Positions 1 to 6,972 of a stretch of DNA of 11,193 nucleotides are shown in pieces. The first letter of the stretch is position 1; every line of letters starts with the position of its first letter. Below the pieces are notes generated by a model. The model did no database searches. It was not told the DNA's origin and was given only the letters and a program-made list of their open reading frames with translations. Origin of the DNA: a virus; UHGV virus genome UHGV-1649846; one strand, given 5' to 3'. The translations under genes and the position numbers were made by a program.

Positions 1-144
1 GCACCGAGGCGTCGCATTCTTCAGATGGTTCAACCCTTAAGTTAGCGCTTATGGGAGAAATCCCCGCAACCTCTGATGTATTATGCATCCTCAACGCAGC
101 CACAGTTAACCTGATTGGCGGGTTTACTTCATCTGTAAATATTT

Positions 145-231
145 TTATAAAAATAATGCCCACGCACAGCATAAAACAAAAAGTATTACAGATAAAAAAG
201 GAACGTAATGTGCAGATTTGTTGTTTTCCAT
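145..231 (-). CDS. Candidate small hydrophobic peptide, 28 aa (MENNKSAHYVPFLSVILFVLCCAWALFL); below the size cutoff of the ORF track
   Basis: Minus-strand ATG at 231-229, stop TAA at 147-145. Shine-Dalgarno-like AAGGTGAG (complement of 237-244) lies 5 nt upstream of the ATG. Polar N-terminus followed by one ~19-residue hydrophobic segment. AT-rich context, so a chance ORF is not excluded. Confidence 0.25.
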   Translation of the reverse strand: MENNKSAHYVPFLSVILFVLCCAWALFL

Positions 232-253
232 ATTTACTCACCTTAATATGATT

Positions 254-268
254 AACCCTGATAGGGTT
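254..268. repeat. Perfect inverted repeat AACCCT-gat-AGGGTT
   Basis: 6-bp arms with a 3-nt spacer, read directly. It lies in what would be the 5' leader of the minus-strand small ORF, or could be an operator-like site. Confidence 0.5.
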
Positions 269-505
269 GTTATTTCAGCGGTTTTTAAATGAGATATTAT
301 GGTGATCTGACAAATTTGCATAACATTAAAATTTAATTTGTCTAACCGCTTTTAATAATAAGCGTTGTATTTTATCCCAGCAATCTATTGTTTGATTTTT
401 ATTCCATCAATGTGGGGGCTTTACACTGGAACCAGTTTATTTATACTTTATACGTCAGCCTGAACAACTGGCATCTGCTGCACTGCGCCATCGAGAGATT
501 GAGAA

Positions 506-1105
506 ATGGCGCATATACAACTGGTCAAACAAACTTCTTCTGGTTTACTTCTCCCGGCGACGCCGGAGAGTTGCGATTTTCTGCATCAAATCAAAATAGG
601 TGAGTGGATACACGGAGACTTTAAGCGTGTGCGTAACTACGCATTCCACAAGCGTTTTTTCAAACTCCTGCAACTGGGATTCGATTACTGGACTCCGGTC
701 GGTGGGGCGATCACGCCTCGCGAACGAGAACTGCTGTCTGGTTTCGTTGATTACCTGTGCGAATCAGTTGGTCGGGAACACACGCCAGCCCTGAGTGATG
801 CCGCAGAGCAATACCTTAACACCGTTGCGACTCGTAGAACCCGGGATACGGCGTTGCTAAAGTCGTTTGAGGCTTTCCGCGAGTGGGTAACCATTCAGGC
901 CGGATTTTACACCGAGCATATTTATCCGGACGGTAGCCGTGGGCGTCGGGCAAAATCCATCGCTTTTGCGAATATGGACGAAGTCGAGTTTCAGCAGGTT
1001 TATAAATCTGTACTGAATGTGCTGTGGAACTGGATTCTGTTCCGTAAATTCTCCTCTCAGGAGGAAGTTGAAAATGTGGCCGCACAACTACTGGAGTTTG
1101 CGTAA
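506..1105 (+). CDS. Lambdoid nin-region protein, DUF1367-like (~200-aa prophage family; assignment from memory)
   Basis: 199-aa ORF in the track; GAGA purine-rich stretch upstream of the ATG. Its stop overlaps the next start (TAATG at 1103-1107), indicating translational coupling. Position immediately upstream of the Q-like gene, as in lambdoid nin regions. Confidence 0.5.
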   Translation: MAHIQLVKQTSSGLLLPATPESCDFLHQIKIGEWIHGDFKRVRNYAFHKRFFKLLQLGFDYWTPVGGAITPRERELLSGFVDYLCESVGREHTPALSDAAEQYLNTVATRRTRDTALLKSFEAFREWVTIQAGFYTEHIYPDGSRGRRAKSIAFANMDEVEFQQVYKSVLNVLWNWILFRKFSSQEEVENVAAQLLEFA

Positions 1106-1395
1106 TGGTGAATTTACGTAAAGCGGCTAAAGGCCAGATGTGCCAGATCAGAATCCCTGGCTACTACAATCACAATCCCGAAACCTCTGTGCTGGCGCAT
1201 TACAGGCTGGCGGGGACGTGCGGAACAGCGACAAAACCACATGATATGCAGGCGGCGATAGCCTGTAGCTCATGCCACGATCTAATCGACGGGCGGGTAA
1301 AAACCAGCGATTACACCAAAGAAGAATTGCGCCTGATGCATGCTGAAGGGGTTTTTCGCACACAAGAAATCTGGAGAAAGAAAGGTCATTTATGA
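1105..1395 (+). CDS. Small Cys/His-rich nin-region protein, YbcO/DUF1364-like putative nuclease (assignment from memory)
   Basis: 96-aa ORF; start overlaps the upstream stop and its own stop overlaps the next start (ATGA at 1392-1395). Cys/His cluster (C..C..H, C..CH) suggests a metal-binding site. Confidence 0.5.
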   Translation: MVNLRKAAKGQMCQIRIPGYYNHNPETSVLAHYRLAGTCGTATKPHDMQAAIACSSCHDLIDGRVKTSDYTKEELRLMHAEGVFRTQEIWRKKGHL

Positions 1396-1934
1396 TTTAC
1401 CCAACGAATACAGGAAAAAGCGGAGAACACCTTCGCCTCACCACGCTGGAAAGTGTCTGGATTCAGGGAAAACTACGTATGTGGGGGCGCTGGTCGTATA
1501 TTGGCGGTGGCAGGTCAGGGAATATGTTCAATCAGTTGTTGGCATCCAAAAAACTGACGAAAACAGCCATTAATGAAGCCCTGCGCAGAATGAAAAAAGC
1601 GGGAATAGAGAAAGCTGAGCTGGAAGCGTTTTTGCGAGAGATGATCAACGGCAAGCAAAAGAGCTGGCTGGCGCATTGTACTGATGCAGAGGCGTTATGT
1701 ATTGATCGAGTCATAAGTGAGGTGCTGGCAGAGCATCCAGGATTGATTTGCATTCTCCGGCAACGCTATGAAGGGCGGGGGATGACTAAGCGCAAAATGG
1801 CTGAATTGCTAAATGATGCACACCCAGAGTGGTGTTTTAGCACATGCGAAAAACGGATTGCTAATTGGTTAGCTGTTGCTGAGTATGCCCTACATATTCC
1901 CATGCGTGAATCATTTGCTGAGAAAATGGCTTGA
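1392..1934 (+). CDS. Late-gene antiterminator Q-like protein
   Basis: 180-aa ORF, last gene of a coupled three-gene unit, followed at once by a strong intrinsic terminator and then a cargo/lysis region, which is the canonical position of Q. Trp-rich N-terminal motif (LRMWGRWSY) resembles the small Q family of E. coli prophages; C-terminal helix-turn-helix-like segment. Confidence 0.5.
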   Translation: MIYPTNTGKSGEHLRLTTLESVWIQGKLRMWGRWSYIGGGRSGNMFNQLLASKKLTKTAINEALRRMKKAGIEKAELEAFLREMINGKQKSWLAHCTDAEALCIDRVISEVLAEHPGLICILRQRYEGRGMTKRKMAELLNDAHPEWCFSTCEKRIANWLAVAEYALHIPMRESFAEKMA

Positions 1935-2013
1935 TTTCTTACGTATAAACTGCTTCAATTTTGCTATGCTTCGCAAAGCTGTATCGCGAGGCGGATTGCA
2001 GACATGGACATCG
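1935..2013 (+). promoter_or_regulatory. Expected location of a PR'-like late promoter and Q-utilisation site (not resolved at base level)
   Basis: Positional inference only: ~80 bp between the Q stop and the tR'-like terminator. Candidate -35/-10 hexamers (TTGCTA 1952-1957, TATCGC near 1981) are weak. Confidence 0.3.
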
Positions 2014-2977: not shown

Positions 2978-3406
2978 ATGGGTTTTCGTAGCGCATCAAT
3001 TCTTACGTTGATTATTAGTGGGATTATTATCGGGTGCACTGATGCTGTATCGACAAATTATCATGACCGTACATCATATTACTCCGATAAAGCAATAGAG
3101 ACACAGTATGTGAGTTCATCTGAACGTACTTCTGATGTTAGTGAGGATATCCGTCTGTATGCCCATCAAATCAAGAGCGCCATCGAAAAACAGTTCGGGG
3201 ATGCGAGTAAGTATTCAGGAAAAGAGTGTACACTGAGAATGCATATGGCCCCGAATGGCCTTCTACTGGAGGTTAAAAGAGAAAGTGGAGACCTCGATTT
3301 ATGTCGTGAAGCGATGAATGCGATAAAGAATGCTGATATACCTGCCCCCCCTTCGCCGGAAGTATATAAAGTATTTCAAAATGGGGTGCTGGATTTTAAA
3401 CCCTGA
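2978..3406 (+). CDS. Lipoprotein with a TolA C-terminal domain (domain III)-like fold
   Basis: 142 aa. Signal peptide with lipobox IIGC (Cys20), then a ~50-residue Ser/Thr/Asp-rich linker, then ~85 residues that align closely with my recollection of the E. coli TolA C-terminus, including both conserved Cys and the terminal VLDFKP. RBS GAGGAAAA precedes the ATG. Confidence 0.8.
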   Translation: MGFRSASILTLIISGIIIGCTDAVSTNYHDRTSYYSDKAIETQYVSSSERTSDVSEDIRLYAHQIKSAIEKQFGDASKYSGKECTLRMHMAPNGLLLEVKRESGDLDLCREAMNAIKNADIPAPPSPEVYKVFQNGVLDFKP

Positions 3407-3556: not shown

Positions 3557-3952
3557 GTGGGATTAAAGAAAATCGTTATGTTGACTTTTTGGGTCGGTTT
3601 TGTTGCGGGATGCACACCTTTACACCCTTCAGATTGCCACAAAACTACTGCTACAGGTAGTTGCAGTTCAGGACGCTGGGATGATCAGGATGAATGGGGG
3701 GCGCAAGCGCGGGGAATCAGAGCTGCAATTAATGCCAAACTTGATGAGCCGCATAACTGGAAAGGGAAAAAATGCAGGTTGCATATGGAATTCTCTCAGG
3801 ATGGCACGGCGTTAAAAATATCTACCAGTAACGGTGATAAAGCCTATTGCGAAGCGATAAAGTCCGCAGCTCATAAAGCCAAATTTCCGGCCTTCAACAA
3901 TCCGGAAGTCTACAGAGATTTTCAGAAATCTGGCTTTGACATGCGAGGTTAG
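3557..3952 (+). CDS. Second, more divergent TolA-domain-III-like lipoprotein (tandem paralogue)
   Basis: 131 aa from a GTG start 6 nt after a strong SD (GAGGAG 3545-3550). Lipobox VAGC (Cys19). C-terminal ~80 residues keep the TolA-III pattern GK.C.L...DG...G...C.A...A...P....VY..F with both Cys conserved. Confidence 0.7.
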   Translation: MGLKKIVMLTFWVGFVAGCTPLHPSDCHKTTATGSCSSGRWDDQDEWGAQARGIRAAINAKLDEPHNWKGKKCRLHMEFSQDGTALKISTSNGDKAYCEAIKSAAHKAKFPAFNNPEVYRDFQKSGFDMRG

Positions 3953-5377: not shown

Positions 5378-5514
5378 AATCTTAACTACAATATGATTCA
5401 TTTTGATGATTGTTTCATAAGGAACAGTGAAGTAAGATCTAAGAGGAGTTAAATTTTATACAGTATAATCATAATATTGCAGCAAGGTGGTTATAATTGA
5501 AAGAATATTTAGAT

Positions 5515-6972
5515 ATGAATACATCTCATGTAAGAGTTGTTACTCATATGTGTGGGTTCCTAGTTTGGCTCTATAGTCTTTCAATGTTGCCACCAATGGT
5601 TGTAGCATTGTTTTATAAAGAAAAAAGCCTGTTCGTTTTCTTTATAACTTTCGTTATATTTTTTTGCATTGGTGGCGGAGCGTGGTATACAACTAAGAAA
5701 TCTGGCATTCAATTACGTACCCGTGATGGGTTTATTATAATTGTAATGTTTTGGATTTTGTTTTCTGTTATTAGTGCATTCCCTTTATGGATTGACTCAG
5801 AACTTAATTTAACGTTCATTGATGCTCTGTTTGAAGGGGTTTCTGGAATAACAACAACAGGAGCAACTGTAATTGATGATGTTAGTTCATTACCTCGGGC
5901 ATATTTGTACTATCGGTCACAGTTAAATTTTATAGGTGGTTTAGGAGTTATTGTTCTAGCGGTTGCTGTATTGCCATTATTGGGTATTGGTGGTGCAAAG
6001 CTTTATCAGTCAGAAATGCCGGGGCCATTTAAGGATGACAAACTCACTCCCCGCCTGGCCGATACGTCACGGACACTGTGGATAACTTATTCTTTATTAG
6101 GTATTGCTTGTATTGTCTGTTATAGACTTGCAGGAATGCCTTTGTTTGATGCTATTTGTCACGGGATTTCCACAGTTTCGCTTGGTGGTTTCTCAACTCA
6201 TAGCGAGAGTATCGGATATTTTAATAACTATTTGGTTGAGCTGGTGGCTGGTTCTTTTTCCCTGCTATCGGCTTTCAACTTCACTCTTTGGTATATTGTT
6301 ATTAGCAGGAAAACGATAAAACCTTTAATCAGAGATATTGAACTTCGTTTCTTTCTGTTAATAGCCTTAGGGGTGATCATTGTTACCTCTTTCCAGGTCT
6401 GGCATATAGGTATGTATGACTTGCATGGAAGTTTTATTCATTCGTTTTTTCTTGCCAGCTCCATGCTCACTGATAATGGTTTAGCTACGCAGGATTATGC
6501 AAGTTGGCCCACGCACACGATAGTGTTTTTGCTGTTGTCAAGTTTCTTTGGGGGATGTATAGGTTCAACTTGTGGTGGAATTAAGTCACTTCGATTTCTT
6601 ATACTTTTCAAACAAAGCAAACACGAGATAAATCAGCTTTCTCATCCCAGAGCGTTGTTGAGTGTAAATGTAGGAGGGAAGATAGTTACAGATCGTGTAA
6701 TGAGGTCTGTATGGAGTTTCTTTTTTCTTTATACTCTCTTCACGGTGTTTTTTATACTGGTGTTAAATGGTATGGGATATGATTTTCTTACATCATTTGC
6801 AACAGTGGCTGCATGTATTAATAATATGGGATTAGGTTTTGGGGCTACTGCATCGTCATTCGGAGTGCTTAATGACATTGCAAAATGCTTAATGTGCATA
6901 GCTATGATTCTTGGTCGCCTTGAAATTTATCCTGTTATTATATTGTTTTCAGGTTTTTTTTGGCGCTCCTAA
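5515..6972 (+). CDS. trkG: TrkH/TrkG-family potassium uptake membrane protein
   Basis: 485 aa from the ATG at 5515 (MNTSHVRVV...), multi-pass membrane protein of the Trk K+ transporter family, matching my recollection of E. coli TrkG. Visibly AT-rich. An upstream in-frame TTG at 5497 preceded by SD AAGGTGG (5485-5490) would add 6 residues. Confidence 0.9.
   Translation: MNTSHVRVVTHMCGFLVWLYSLSMLPPMVVALFYKEKSLFVFFITFVIFFCIGGGAWYTTKKSGIQLRTRDGFIIIVMFWILFSVISAFPLWIDSELNLTFIDALFEGVSGITTTGATVIDDVSSLPRAYLYYRSQLNFIGGLGVIVLAVAVLPLLGIGGAKLYQSEMPGPFKDDKLTPRLADTSRTLWITYSLLGIACIVCYRLAGMPLFDAICHGISTVSLGGFSTHSESIGYFNNYLVELVAGSFSLLSAFNFTLWYIVISRKTIKPLIRDIELRFFLLIALGVIIVTSFQVWHIGMYDLHGSFIHSFFLASSMLTDNGLATQDYASWPTHTIVFLLLSSFFGGCIGSTCGGIKSLRFLILFKQSKHEINQLSHPRALLSVNVGGKIVTDRVMRSVWSFFFLYTLFTVFFILVLNGMGYDFLTSFATVAACINNMGLGFGATASSFGVLNDIAKCLMCIAMILGRLEIYPVIILFSGFFWRS

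What the first reader, a model, noticed from the sequence alone, without database searches (positions are those of the whole stretch)
145..268. Hidden minus-strand 28-aa hydrophobic ORF with a good Shine-Dalgarno and a hairpin in its leader
The only minus-strand element in the window with translation signals. It encodes a polar N-terminus and a single transmembrane-length hydrophobic segment with a CC pair, which is the size and shape of type I toxin or small membrane-peptide genes. Those genes are known cargo of lambdoid prophages (the hok-type gene of Qin is the precedent). The palindrome AACCCTgatAGGGTT (254-268) would fold in its 5' leader. It could also be chance in AT-rich DNA.
Basis: seen in the sequence. 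Interest (0 to 1): 0.5.

Follow-up and report, generated by a model that had tools for sequence, protein, structure and literature searches.

The report
Unannotated 28-residue prophage membrane peptide gene
The 28-codon reading frame is a real gene for a tiny membrane peptide, kept intact by selection. It sits in a 220-bp cassette carried by lambda-like prophages in about a fifth of E. coli genomes, and annotation misses it, probably because it is so short; whether it is a toxin is not shown.

Summary
Window 145..231 (-) encodes MENNKSAHYVPFLSVILFVLCCAWALFL. An AGGTGA ribosome-binding site lies 6 nt upstream, and a small hairpin lies at 254-268.

It is not a chance ORF:
- The DNA is in 1178 of 5426 complete E. 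coli genomes and is not annotated in any of the 60 hit rows listed or the 8 loci inspected.
- All 283 copies collected keep exactly 28 codons. That includes 117 of 117 chosen without reference to the ORF.
- Substitutions are enriched for synonymous changes in this frame only (P about 0.001-0.007; dN/dS about 0.35).
- In the most divergent lineages, homology shrinks to a roughly 220-bp cassette (window about 145-362). It holds an invariant AT-rich block, a -10-like TAnnAT at fixed spacing, a 60-67 nt leader, the ribosome-binding site and the ORF.

The cassette sits on the opposite strand at the edge of a variable cargo region, next to hokD, IteA/S8 peptidase, Sll1717-type ATPases or DUF1971. 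It lies upstream of the DUF1367/Q-type genes. It is absent from K-12 Qin and phage Rac-SA53.

Best reading: a moron-type gene for a single-pass membrane peptide of a new sequence family. The type I toxin idea is neither proven nor excluded. I found no antisense RNA and no structured leader, and the 254-268 hairpin is not conserved.

The parts
145..231 (-). 28-codon ORF plus its TAA stop (145-147). It encodes MENNKSAHYVPFLSVILFVLCCAWALFL: a polar N-terminus (residues 1-9), Pro11, then a hydrophobic segment that runs to the C-terminus.
   Evidence: One search lists the ORF. It is intact in all 283 copies. Synonymous changes are in excess in this frame only. Hydropathy is, and the conserved helix face.
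237..244 (-). Ribosome-binding site AAGGTGAG (core AGGTGA), 6 nt before the ATG.
   Evidence: Read from the sequence. AAGGTG occurs in 93 of 128 distinct neighbourhoods. Weaker forms are AAAGTG in 27, AAGGTA in 5 and AAAGCG in 3.
254..268 (-). Leader hairpin AACCCUaucAGGGUU (6 bp, -6.2 kcal/mol). It is specific to one lineage and is not a core part of the cassette.
   Evidence: Folding. Some compensatory variants exist within the window's lineage (AACCC/GGGTT to AATCC/GGATT). The hairpin is absent in the L008-, L066- and L081-type lineages. On the + strand the scan flags it as a weak terminator-like site.
294..299 (-). Putative -10 element TAATAT. The predicted transcription start is near window 287, giving a leader of about 55 nt. 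This is inferred, not shown.
   Evidence: A hexamer TA[AG][TC]AT lies exactly 19 nt after the conserved block in 126 of 128 distinct neighbourhoods. It lies 60-67 nt before the ATG, although the spacer sequences differ between lineages. The stricter consensus scan does not call it, because the -35 is weak.
319..362 (-). Invariant AT-rich block CTTATTATTAAAAGCGGTTAGACAAATTAAATTTTAATGTTATG. It marks the distal edge of the cassette. I propose it is the UP-element/-35 region or a regulator-binding site.
   Evidence: It is nearly identical in all lineages, including the non-E. coli one, whose homology begins here. All 117 evaluable viral contigs found by this block alone carry the intact ORF downstream. 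It contains a 5-bp inverted repeat at 347-364.
53..135 (+). Neighbouring element: the 3' UTR and degenerate terminator hairpin (109-125) of a convergent hokD-type mRNA. The small ORF's transcript would run into its complement.
   Evidence: It matches the region just after the hokD or MokW CDS in K-12 Qin and in many phages. The hairpin folds at -8.2 kcal/mol on the + strand but only -4.0 (z about 0) on the - strand.
1..52 (+). Neighbouring element: the terminal 52 bp of an IS421 (IS4-family) copy, inserted between the hok CDS (outside the window) and its 3' UTR.
   Evidence: The annotated IS421 transposase lies immediately upstream in L001 and L002. An inverted copy of this end is found on the other side of the IS, and hok homology starts at window 53.

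Best explanation
Window about 145-362 (- strand) is a self-contained, horizontally mobile 'moron'-type cassette of lambdoid (Qin-like) prophages. It encodes a 28-residue membrane peptide.

Shown:
- The ORF is maintained by purifying selection at the protein level.
- It travels together with an invariant upstream AT-rich block, a -10-like hexamer at fixed distance and a ribosome-binding site.
- It is AT-rich relative to its neighbours.
- It is present or absent among otherwise related prophages.

Inferred:
- It is transcribed leftward, against the prophage's early-right/Q-region direction, from its own sigma-70-type promoter. That promoter has a weak -35, an AT-rich UP-like block and a TAATAT -10, with a start near window 287.
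- The transcript would be a short monocistronic mRNA, presumably made in the lysogen.
- It is translated efficiently from AGGUGA.
- The product inserts as a single-pass helix. The short polar N-terminus (Glu2, Lys5, His8) would face the cytoplasm and the C-terminus would sit at the periplasmic face.
- The variable residues of the helix lie on one face. The invariant ones (Ser14, Cys21, Trp24, Ala25, Leu28, among others) lie on the other.
- I therefore propose that the peptide acts by specific helix-helix contact, either with itself or with a host or phage membrane protein, rather than as a generic detergent-like peptide.

What that contact achieves is not determined. Candidates are membrane perturbation or toxicity, exclusion of incoming phage, and modulation of a transporter or sensor.
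For: ORF and signals.

Abundance and lack of annotation:
- The DNA is in 1178 of 5426 complete E. coli genomes. No feature is annotated under the match in any of the 60 rows listed.
- It is also unannotated in the four phage records that carry it.
- Eleven peptide variants are absent from a 15-billion-protein collection.

Intactness:
- I collected 283 copies, giving 129 distinct neighbourhoods, 27 distinct ORF sequences and 21 peptides. All have 28 codons with the same start and stop.
- In a sample selected only by the upstream block, 117 of 117 are intact.

Selection:
- There are 55 inferred substitutions, of which 23-25 are synonymous against 14.3-14.8 expected (P = 0.0008-0.007).
- The probability that 55 random hits spare the start, the stop and the frame content is 0.009.
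- The other five frames are not significant, apart from the wobble-matched antisense frame, which contains a stop.
- dN/dS is about 0.35.

Cassette boundaries:
- The roughly 80%-identity lineage matches only window 144-246 in blastn.
- A lineage from another enterobacterial species lies next to yebY/copD, whose core genes are 84.5% identical to E. coli. It shares only block-to-stop.
- There are 8 different 3'-side contexts and 6 promoter-side contexts.

Other evidence:
- Fixed promoter geometry.
- GC content is 29% in the cassette against 49% in the flanking genes.
- Present/absent polymorphism: K-12 Qin and phage Rac-SA53 have hok and the downstream genes but no cassette.
- Variable transmembrane positions cluster on one helix face (exact P = 0.029).
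- It is not a fragment of a longer protein. A search of 5.8 billion clusters found only four aberrant longer forms of this same locus.
Against: - There is no direct evidence of transcription, translation or membrane location.
- The promoter is inferred from conservation only. The consensus scan finds no sigma-70 match on this strand.
- The ORF has no convincing terminator of its own in this window (-4.0 kcal/mol, z about 0).
- The selection signal rests on only 55 substitutions in 87 nt. Recombination between lineages was not modelled.
- The ribosome-binding site is weakened (AAAGTG or AAAGCG) in about a quarter of distinct copies.
- Rare frameshifted or truncated copies exist (P0002-P0004; an IS1-truncated copy). 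Loss is therefore tolerated in decaying prophages.
- The helix-face statistic is modest (P about 0.03).
- The ORF is not among the Ribo-seq-supported small genes reported for E. coli O157 Sakai. I did not establish whether Sakai carries the cassette.
Confidence: 0.55

Rival explanations
1. It is a type I toxin-antitoxin locus. The peptide would be a membrane-depolarising toxin, and an antisense or divergently overlapping small RNA encoded within the same 220-bp cassette would hold its mRNA in check, as Sib does for Ibs or OhsC for ShoB.
For: - The size, hydrophobicity and single transmembrane segment fit.
- It is a tiny autonomous cassette in prophages, often right next to hokD.
- The opposite strand has a promoter-like site overlapping the start codon: TTTCCA-16-TATGAT at 225-252. 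Equivalents occur in the L168 and L068 lineages.
- Three of four lineages have a small hairpin followed by a T-run on that strand inside the leader, despite unrelated sequence.
- The hairpin at 254-268 folds in both senses, as kissing partners would.
- The upstream block is conserved far more than a promoter usually needs.
Against: - There is no hit to Hok/Gef, Ldr, TisB, Ibs, Fst or any other toxin family in Pfam or NCBIfam, even at E up to 10.
- There is no Rfam hit in window 1-2000 at E up to 1.
- The antisense promoter-like sites occur at or near the frequency seen in shuffled sequence (2-3 found against shuffle means of 1.8-3.6). Their conservation is confounded by the start codon and ribosome-binding site on the other strand.
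- The L081 lineage lacks that site under the scan's criteria.
- The terminator-like hairpin at 347-364 has no T-run in the non-E. coli lineage.
- The leader is short, is not more stable than shuffles (z -0.6 to +0.3), and leaves the ribosome-binding site about 25-50% unpaired. This is unlike tisB, zorO, dinQ or hok.
- There are no tandem copies.
Confidence: 0.25
2. The conserved thing is a non-coding element and the ORF rides on it. Two forms are possible. One is a + strand terminator or insulator (tR2-like) that stops read-through from cargo genes into the Q-type antiterminator operon. The other is a + strand small RNA.
For: - Two terminator-like sites lie on the + strand, at 253-269 and 347-364.
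- The position is exactly where lambdoid phages keep nin-region terminators (own knowledge).
- The last 12 nt of the ORF and the CCTTTTTTATC stretch show almost no synonymous variation.
- In the 347-364 hairpin, the L004 (class D) substitutions are G-U-compatible only on the + strand.
Against: - A non-coding element does not explain the frame-specific excess of synonymous changes, the absence of any stop or indel across 55 substitutions, or the conserved ATG and ribosome-binding site.
- It also does not explain why homology ends 2-3 nt after the stop codon.
- The region between the ribosome-binding site and the block, where the + strand hairpins lie, is the least conserved part.
- There is no Rfam match.
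Confidence: 0.1
3. It is a chance ORF in AT-rich intergenic DNA, or the leftover N-terminal signal or anchor of a longer (lipo)protein gene truncated by cargo insertion.
For: - AT-rich DNA throws up short ORFs.
- Homology between lineages ends at the stop codon, as a truncation point might.
- There are weak signal-peptide-like matches: NCBIfam Lp6.6 lipoprotein at 11.8-15.2 bits against a cutoff of 35, and a PHROG Rz-like spanin at E 0.24.
- One lineage has a lipobox-like FAGC.
Against: - Shuffles give such an ORF in only 0.5% of trials.
- All lineages share the same stop and the same last five residues, whatever lies downstream.
- Purifying selection acts on the 28-aa form itself.
- No longer relative exists among 5.8 billion protein clusters, within the limits of a word-seeded search.
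- The residue before Cys21 is Leu, Phe or Cys in most variants, which breaks the lipobox rule.
Confidence: 0.04

Closest known systems
Enterobacterial type I toxins of 19-35 aa (IbsC/SibC, ShoB/OhsC, TisB/IstR-1, DinQ/AgrB, ZorO/OrzO, Ldr/Rdl). Comparison from my own knowledge of these systems.
   Same: Length class, a single hydrophobic helix and a compact intergenic cassette missed by gene callers. Some are prophage- or island-borne. ShoB likewise ends in ...LFL.
   Different: There is no sequence relationship and no demonstrated antitoxin RNA. The leader is short, unstructured and open, and there are no tandem duplications. Toxicity is untested.
HokD (RelF) of the Qin prophage and the Hok/Gef family
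   Same: It is a prophage-borne small membrane peptide gene in the same cargo slot. A hokD-type locus is the convergent neighbour in about two thirds of the copies (170 of 264 3'-side contexts), and its 3' UTR is at window 53-135.
   Different: Hok proteins are about 50 aa. They have a conserved periplasmic Cys-containing tail, an overlapping mok frame and an mRNA of about 400 nt with fold-back elements. None of that is present here, and there is no Pfam Hok_Gef hit. The cassette also occurs without hok.
Small single-pass inner-membrane proteins of E. coli found by the Storz laboratory and others (for example YohP, YoaK, YkgR, MgtS, KdpF). From my own knowledge.
   Same: Under 50 aa, one helix, short polar end, strong ribosome-binding site and conservation as the main evidence. 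Several act by binding a larger membrane protein.
   Different: Those are core-genome genes. This one is mobile prophage cargo with no sequence similarity to them, and its translation has not been verified.
Lambdoid-phage morons (for example lambda bor and lom, HK97 gp15). From my own knowledge.
   Same: An extra gene unit dropped between conserved phage modules. It has deviant base composition, presumably its own promoter, and a present/absent pattern among related phages.
   Different: It is far smaller than described morons, at about 220 bp in total, and it is oriented against the early-right transcript. Its terminator is borrowed from the neighbour or is weak. Expression from the lysogen has not been shown.

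Membership tests
Type I toxin-antitoxin system | Small (<60 aa) hydrophobic peptide with one predicted transmembrane segment | tested here: met
   28 aa. Residues 10-28 have a Kyte-Doolittle mean of +2.62.
Type I toxin-antitoxin system | An antisense or divergently overlapping RNA antitoxin with its own promoter and terminator in the same locus | tested here: inconclusive
   Promoter-like sites on the opposite strand (225-252 and lineage equivalents) occur at about the frequency seen in shuffles. There is no Rfam hit. Terminator-like hairpins on that strand are weak and not homologous between lineages.
Type I toxin-antitoxin system | Toxin mRNA kept translationally inert by a structured leader or a sequestered ribosome-binding site | tested here: not met
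   The predicted leader is 54-61 nt, with folding z-scores of -0.6 to +0.3 against shuffles. The ribosome-binding site has a mean unpaired probability of 0.25-0.51. This depends on the inferred transcription start.
Type I toxin-antitoxin system | Growth arrest or membrane damage on overexpression, relieved by the RNA | not testable with these tools
   Needs an experiment.
Known toxin sequence families (Hok/Gef, Ldr, TisB, Ibs, Fst and others) | Significant match to the family profile | tested here: not met
   There are no Pfam hits at E up to 10. NCBIfam gives only a sub-threshold lipoprotein signal match. PHROGs and PADLOC give nothing meaningful. There is no PDB sequence match.
Phage moron | A discrete unit inserted between conserved prophage modules, present in some related phages and absent in others | tested here: met
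   The same cassette appears in 8 3'-side contexts and 6 promoter-side contexts. It is absent from K-12 Qin and Rac-SA53, which share the flanking genes.
Phage moron | Base composition different from neighbouring phage genes | tested here: met
   GC content is 29% in window 145-365 against 49% in 506-1934.
Phage moron | Own promoter and terminator | tested here: inconclusive
   A -10-like TAnnAT is conserved at fixed spacing from an invariant block in 126 of 128 distinct copies. However, there is no consensus sigma-70 call on this strand and no good terminator in this window. Copies with an intact hok neighbour have a perfect 7-bp hairpin 20 nt after the stop.
Phage moron | Expressed from the repressed prophage | not testable with these tools
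   Needs transcript data from a lysogen.
Small single-pass bacterial membrane proteins | Reading frame conserved under purifying selection across lineages | tested here: met
   23-25 synonymous changes out of 55, against 14-15 expected (P 0.0008-0.007). dN/dS is about 0.35, and the signal is frame-specific.
Small single-pass bacterial membrane proteins | Detected translation product in the membrane | not testable with these tools
   The ORF is not found in the supplements of the Sakai Ribo-seq study or the human-microbiome small-gene study. Full-text searches for the peptide returned nothing.
Bacterial lipoprotein signal peptide | Lipobox [LVI][ASTVI][GAS]C with a small residue before the Cys | tested here: not met
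   Cys21 is invariant. The residue before it is Leu in 212 copies, Cys in 30, Phe in 28, Ser in 3 and Gly in 10, out of 283. The NCBIfam lipoprotein match scores 11.8-15.2 bits against a cutoff of 35.

The most novel reading that the evidence does not exclude
The cassette would be a new, widespread family of prophage-borne membrane-active peptide systems. It could be a new type I toxin-antitoxin family whose RNA partner lies in the invariant upstream block. Alternatively, it could be a minimal phage-exclusion or abortive-infection peptide stationed at the edge of a defence-gene hotspot. Annotation would have missed it, probably because 87 nt lies just under the usual 90-nt gene-caller minimum (my own knowledge).
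Probability: 0.25. Interest if true: 0.6.

Novelty: new member of a known kind. Interest (0 to 1): 0.45.

Why it matters
About one in five complete E. coli genomes carries this gene, as do Shigella, E. ruysiae and another enterobacterial species. No annotation, protein database or family library I could query contains it.

It is a clean example of how a length cut-off hides selected genes in prophage cargo regions. It also gives a very small, well-delimited cassette (220 bp) that can be tested directly. The tests would look for toxicity, phage exclusion, or binding to a host membrane protein.

Its constant position is also practically useful. It sits at the border between variable defence or toxin cargo and the Q-antiterminator operon, so it can serve as a landmark for that hotspot.

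Tried and rejected
1. Family assignment. Pfam, NCBIfam, PHROGs, PADLOC and PDB sequence searches gave nothing above noise. The protein-homology and structure tools refuse 28 aa. A doubled 56-aa query found only four aberrant longer versions of the same locus.
2. Known RNA. Rfam on window 1-2000 at E up to 1 gave no hit.
3. K-12 counterpart. Qin has only the hok 3' UTR part (window 53-125), and DLP12 has no opposite-strand small gene in the equivalent slot.
4. Literature. Full-text searches for the peptide and its variants found nothing. The supplements of the Sakai Ribo-seq small-gene paper and the human-microbiome small-gene preprint also had no match.
5. The overlapping + strand 66-aa ORF at 51..251 and the 27-aa ORF at 238..321 (-). 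Neither is conserved in other lineages.
6. The hairpin at 254-268 as a defining leader element. It is rejected because three lineages lack it.
7. A lipoprotein reading. It is rejected on the lipobox.
8. An antisense promoter at the 3' end of the ORF (TATAAA/AATAAT). Its -35 would lie outside the cassette. The scan calls it only in the L081 lineage, and the -10 is destroyed in the L059 lineage.
9. tRNA genes in the window. None were found.

Full report
**What is in the window**

One search lists an ORF at 145..231 on the minus strand: ATG start, 28 codons, MENNKSAHYVPFLSVILFVLCCAWALFL. The sequence shows AAGGTGAG at 244->237, whose AGGTGA core lies 6 nt from the ATG. An in-frame TGA three codons upstream means the frame cannot be extended.

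Residues 1-9 are polar and residues 10-28 are strongly hydrophobic (Kyte-Doolittle means -1.78 and +2.62). The palindrome at 254-268 folds at -6.2 kcal/mol in the mRNA sense (z -2.7). Only 0.5% of dinucleotide shuffles of window 1-505 produce any ORF with an ATG, a ribosome-binding core and a hydrophobic stretch.

**Surroundings**

The window is the nin/Q-to-lysis part of a Qin-like lambdoid prophage. By comparison with a nearly identical annotated E. coli chromosome, it holds:
- DUF1367 (506..1105), DUF1364 and DUF1133 (a Q-type antiterminator);
- two TolA-like genes;
- essD and rrrD;
- trkG.

The left end is more informative.
- Window 1-52 is the terminal part of an IS421 copy.
- Window 53 to about 135 is the 3' UTR and terminator of a hokD-type mRNA. 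It matches the sequence immediately after hokD in K-12 Qin and after a MokW-like CDS in phage HannyBb.

The small ORF is therefore convergent with a hok locus whose CDS lies just outside the window and has been separated from its 3' UTR by the IS. K-12 Qin has the hok part but not the small ORF.

**Is it a gene?**

The 171 bp around it (window 130-300) occur in 1178 of 5426 complete E. coli genomes. No feature is annotated under the match in any of the 60 rows listed. None of the four phage records that carry the ORF annotates it.

Divergent copies are the key evidence. A lineage at about 80% identity matches only window 144-246, which is the stop codon through the ribosome-binding site. It nevertheless encodes a 28-residue peptide with the same start and stop, MENNNYAHLAPFLSVILFAGCFIWALFL.

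Scans of species-representative genomes, metagenomes and viral contigs added loci from E. ruysiae, Shigella flexneri and gut and food metagenomes. In total I collected 283 copies. They give 129 distinct 500-nt neighbourhoods, 27 distinct ORF sequences and 21 peptide variants. All have 28 codons.

Those copies were retrieved through the peptide, so I drew a second sample using only a conserved DNA block upstream of the ORF. Of 120 viral contigs, 117 were evaluable and all 117 had the intact ORF.

On a neighbour-joining tree with parsimony reconstruction there are 55 substitutions.
- 23-25 are synonymous, against 14.3-14.8 expected if the same changes were placed at random (P = 0.0008 to 0.007).
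- The probability that 55 random changes leave start, stop and frame undisrupted is 0.009.
- Of the other five frames, four show no excess. The fifth is the antisense frame that shares wobble positions (P = 0.014), and it contains a stop.
- dN/dS is about 0.35.

This is a modest data set, but the signal is frame-specific and agrees with the pattern of homology. Rare broken copies do exist: one truncated by IS1, and three frameshifted or rearranged forms that entered protein databases only because the damage made them longer than 30 aa.

**The unit that moves**

Aligning representatives of all lineages in the ORF's orientation shows what is shared:
- a nearly invariant 44-nt AT-rich block (window 362->319);
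- 19 nt of lineage-specific sequence;
- a hexamer TA[AG][TC]AT (window 299->294; present in 126 of 128 distinct copies);
- 60-67 nt of poorly conserved leader;
- the ribosome-binding site and the ORF.

Homology stops 2-3 nt after the stop codon.

One lineage (L066-L068) lies next to yebY/copD in a species whose core genes are only 84.5% identical to E. coli. It shares nothing but this unit of about 220 bp, with many synonymous differences in the ORF.

Contexts vary on both sides.
- On the 3' side I found 8 contexts. They include hokD, IS421 in both orientations, IteA plus an S8 peptidase, Sll1717-type ATPases and a DUF1971 gene.
- On the promoter side I found 6 contexts. They are mostly DUF1367, or a Rem-like gene plus DUF968.

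Phage Rac-SA53 has hok, rem and the same DUF1367-YbcO-Q genes but no cassette. The cassette is 29% GC against 49% for the adjacent genes. These are the hallmarks of a moron: a small autonomous gene unit dropped into a prophage, here at the border of a cargo and defence hotspot.

**How it probably works**

The following steps are inferred, not shown.

The fixed 19-nt spacing between the invariant block and a hexamer that always keeps T-12, A-11 and T-7 fits a sigma-70 promoter reading on the minus strand. It would have a weak -35 (TTATGC/TATGCA) and an AT-rich UP-like region. No reading of the same bases on the plus strand keeps these positions in all lineages. The start would be near window 287 and the leader about 55 nt. 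The stricter consensus scan does not call this promoter.

The leader is no more structured than shuffled sequence, and the ribosome-binding site is partly open in every lineage, so translation should be efficient. The product has the shape of a single-pass, N-in peptide.

Within the hydrophobic segment the variable positions (15, 19, 20, 22, 23, 26) fall on one helical face (exact P = 0.029). Ser14, Cys21, Trp24, Ala25 and Leu28 are invariant or nearly so, as are His8 and Pro11. That pattern suggests specific helix packing, either self-association or a partner protein.

In this window the ORF has no good terminator. The degenerate hok hairpin folds at only -4.0 kcal/mol in this sense. In copies with an intact hok neighbour, a perfect 7-bp hairpin follows the stop by 20 nt.

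**The type I toxin idea**

The idea fits the size, the hydrophobicity, the compact cassette and the company the ORF keeps. I could not substantiate it.
- There is no match to any toxin family and no Rfam match.
- The opposite strand has a promoter-like site overlapping the start codon (225-252, with equivalents in two other lineages). Several lineages also have a small hairpin plus T-run on that strand. These sites occur at or near the frequency seen in shuffled sequence and are confounded by coding constraints.
Three other lineages lack it.
- The open, short leader is unlike most type I toxin mRNAs.

I give this reading about one chance in four. It is a special case of the main explanation rather than a contradiction of it.

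**Other readings**

- A purely non-coding role, as a plus-strand terminator or insulator ahead of the Q operon or as a plus-strand small RNA. This would explain the two terminator-like sites at 253-269 and 347-364. It does not explain the frame-specific selection, the conserved start and ribosome-binding site, or the boundary at the stop codon.
- A truncated remnant of a longer gene. This is excluded as far as the tools reach, because a search of 5.8 billion protein clusters returned only damaged forms of this same locus.
- A lipoprotein signal. This fails on the lipobox.

**Novelty**

None of eleven peptide variants is in a 15-billion-sequence collection. No paper or supplement I could search contains the peptide.

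The probable reason is mechanical. At 87 nt including the stop, the gene is just under the 90-nt minimum used by common gene callers (my own knowledge; I did not verify the collection's own length limit).

The kind of thing is familiar: a small hydrophobic prophage-encoded peptide, or moron. The family is new and unusually widespread for something unannotated. I rate it as a new member of a known kind, of moderate interest. It becomes more interesting if toxicity or phage exclusion is shown.

Noticed in passing
window 1-135: An IS421 end (window 1-52) sits directly between a hokD-type CDS, which lies outside the window, and that gene's 3' UTR and terminator (window 53-135). The same insertion site occurs with the IS in either orientation in other strains (L001, L002). 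This echoes the old observation (own knowledge) that chromosomal hok loci are often interrupted by IS elements close to, but not inside, the reading frame.
   Followed up: partly
window 420-447 (+): A strong promoter-like site, TTTACA-16-TATACT (10 of 12), lies about 60 nt upstream of the DUF1367-DUF1364-DUF1133 (Q-type) operon. It is conserved in the L081 and L168 lineages even where the downstream gene differs. A constitutive promoter in front of an antiterminator gene in a prophage would need explaining.
   Followed up: no
window 347-364: This is a 5-bp inverted repeat (CGCTT...AAGCG) at the outer edge of the cassette. The non-E. coli lineage has a double compensatory change (CACTT...AAGTG). 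The L004 lineage has changes that keep pairing only as G-U on the + strand. Its role is unresolved: terminator, protein-binding site or nothing.
   Followed up: partly
cargo slot upstream of the cassette in L002, L003, L009, L006, L007, L291: The position immediately to the left of the cassette holds different cargo in different strains. I saw hokD, relBE-hokD, IteA plus an S8 peptidase, two Sll1717-type P-loop ATPases, AbiH, DUF1971 and QueH. This looks like a defence and toxin hotspot whose right border is the small ORF.
   Followed up: partly
window 2978-3406 and 3557-3952 (+): Two prophage genes are annotated in the near-identical chromosome as TolA and a TolA C-terminal-domain protein. 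They lie between the Q-type gene and the holin. Phage-borne TolA fragments could interfere with Tol-dependent uptake. I did not examine this.
   Followed up: no
window 6228-6380 (-): This is a 50-aa ORF (MITPKAINRKKRSSISLIKGFIVFLLITIYQRVKLKADSREKEPATSSTK) with an AAGAGGT ribosome-binding motif and a hydrophobic core. It lies antisense inside the trkG gene. It is probably spurious, and I did not test its conservation.
   Followed up: no
proteins P0001-P0004: The only database proteins related to the peptide are damaged or fused versions of this locus. One is a 58-aa fusion with the upstream 27-aa frame, two are frameshift extensions (58 and 36 aa), and one is a rearranged form. They were annotated only because the damage made them long enough for gene callers.
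   Followed up: yes
window 5192 and 8162 versus L289: The window lacks the IS3 insertion that interrupts the Rz/Rz1 region in strain EH10-18-47. It also diverges from that strain after window 8162. trkG, a Rac-prophage gene in K-12, is carried here at about window 5497-6972.
   Followed up: no
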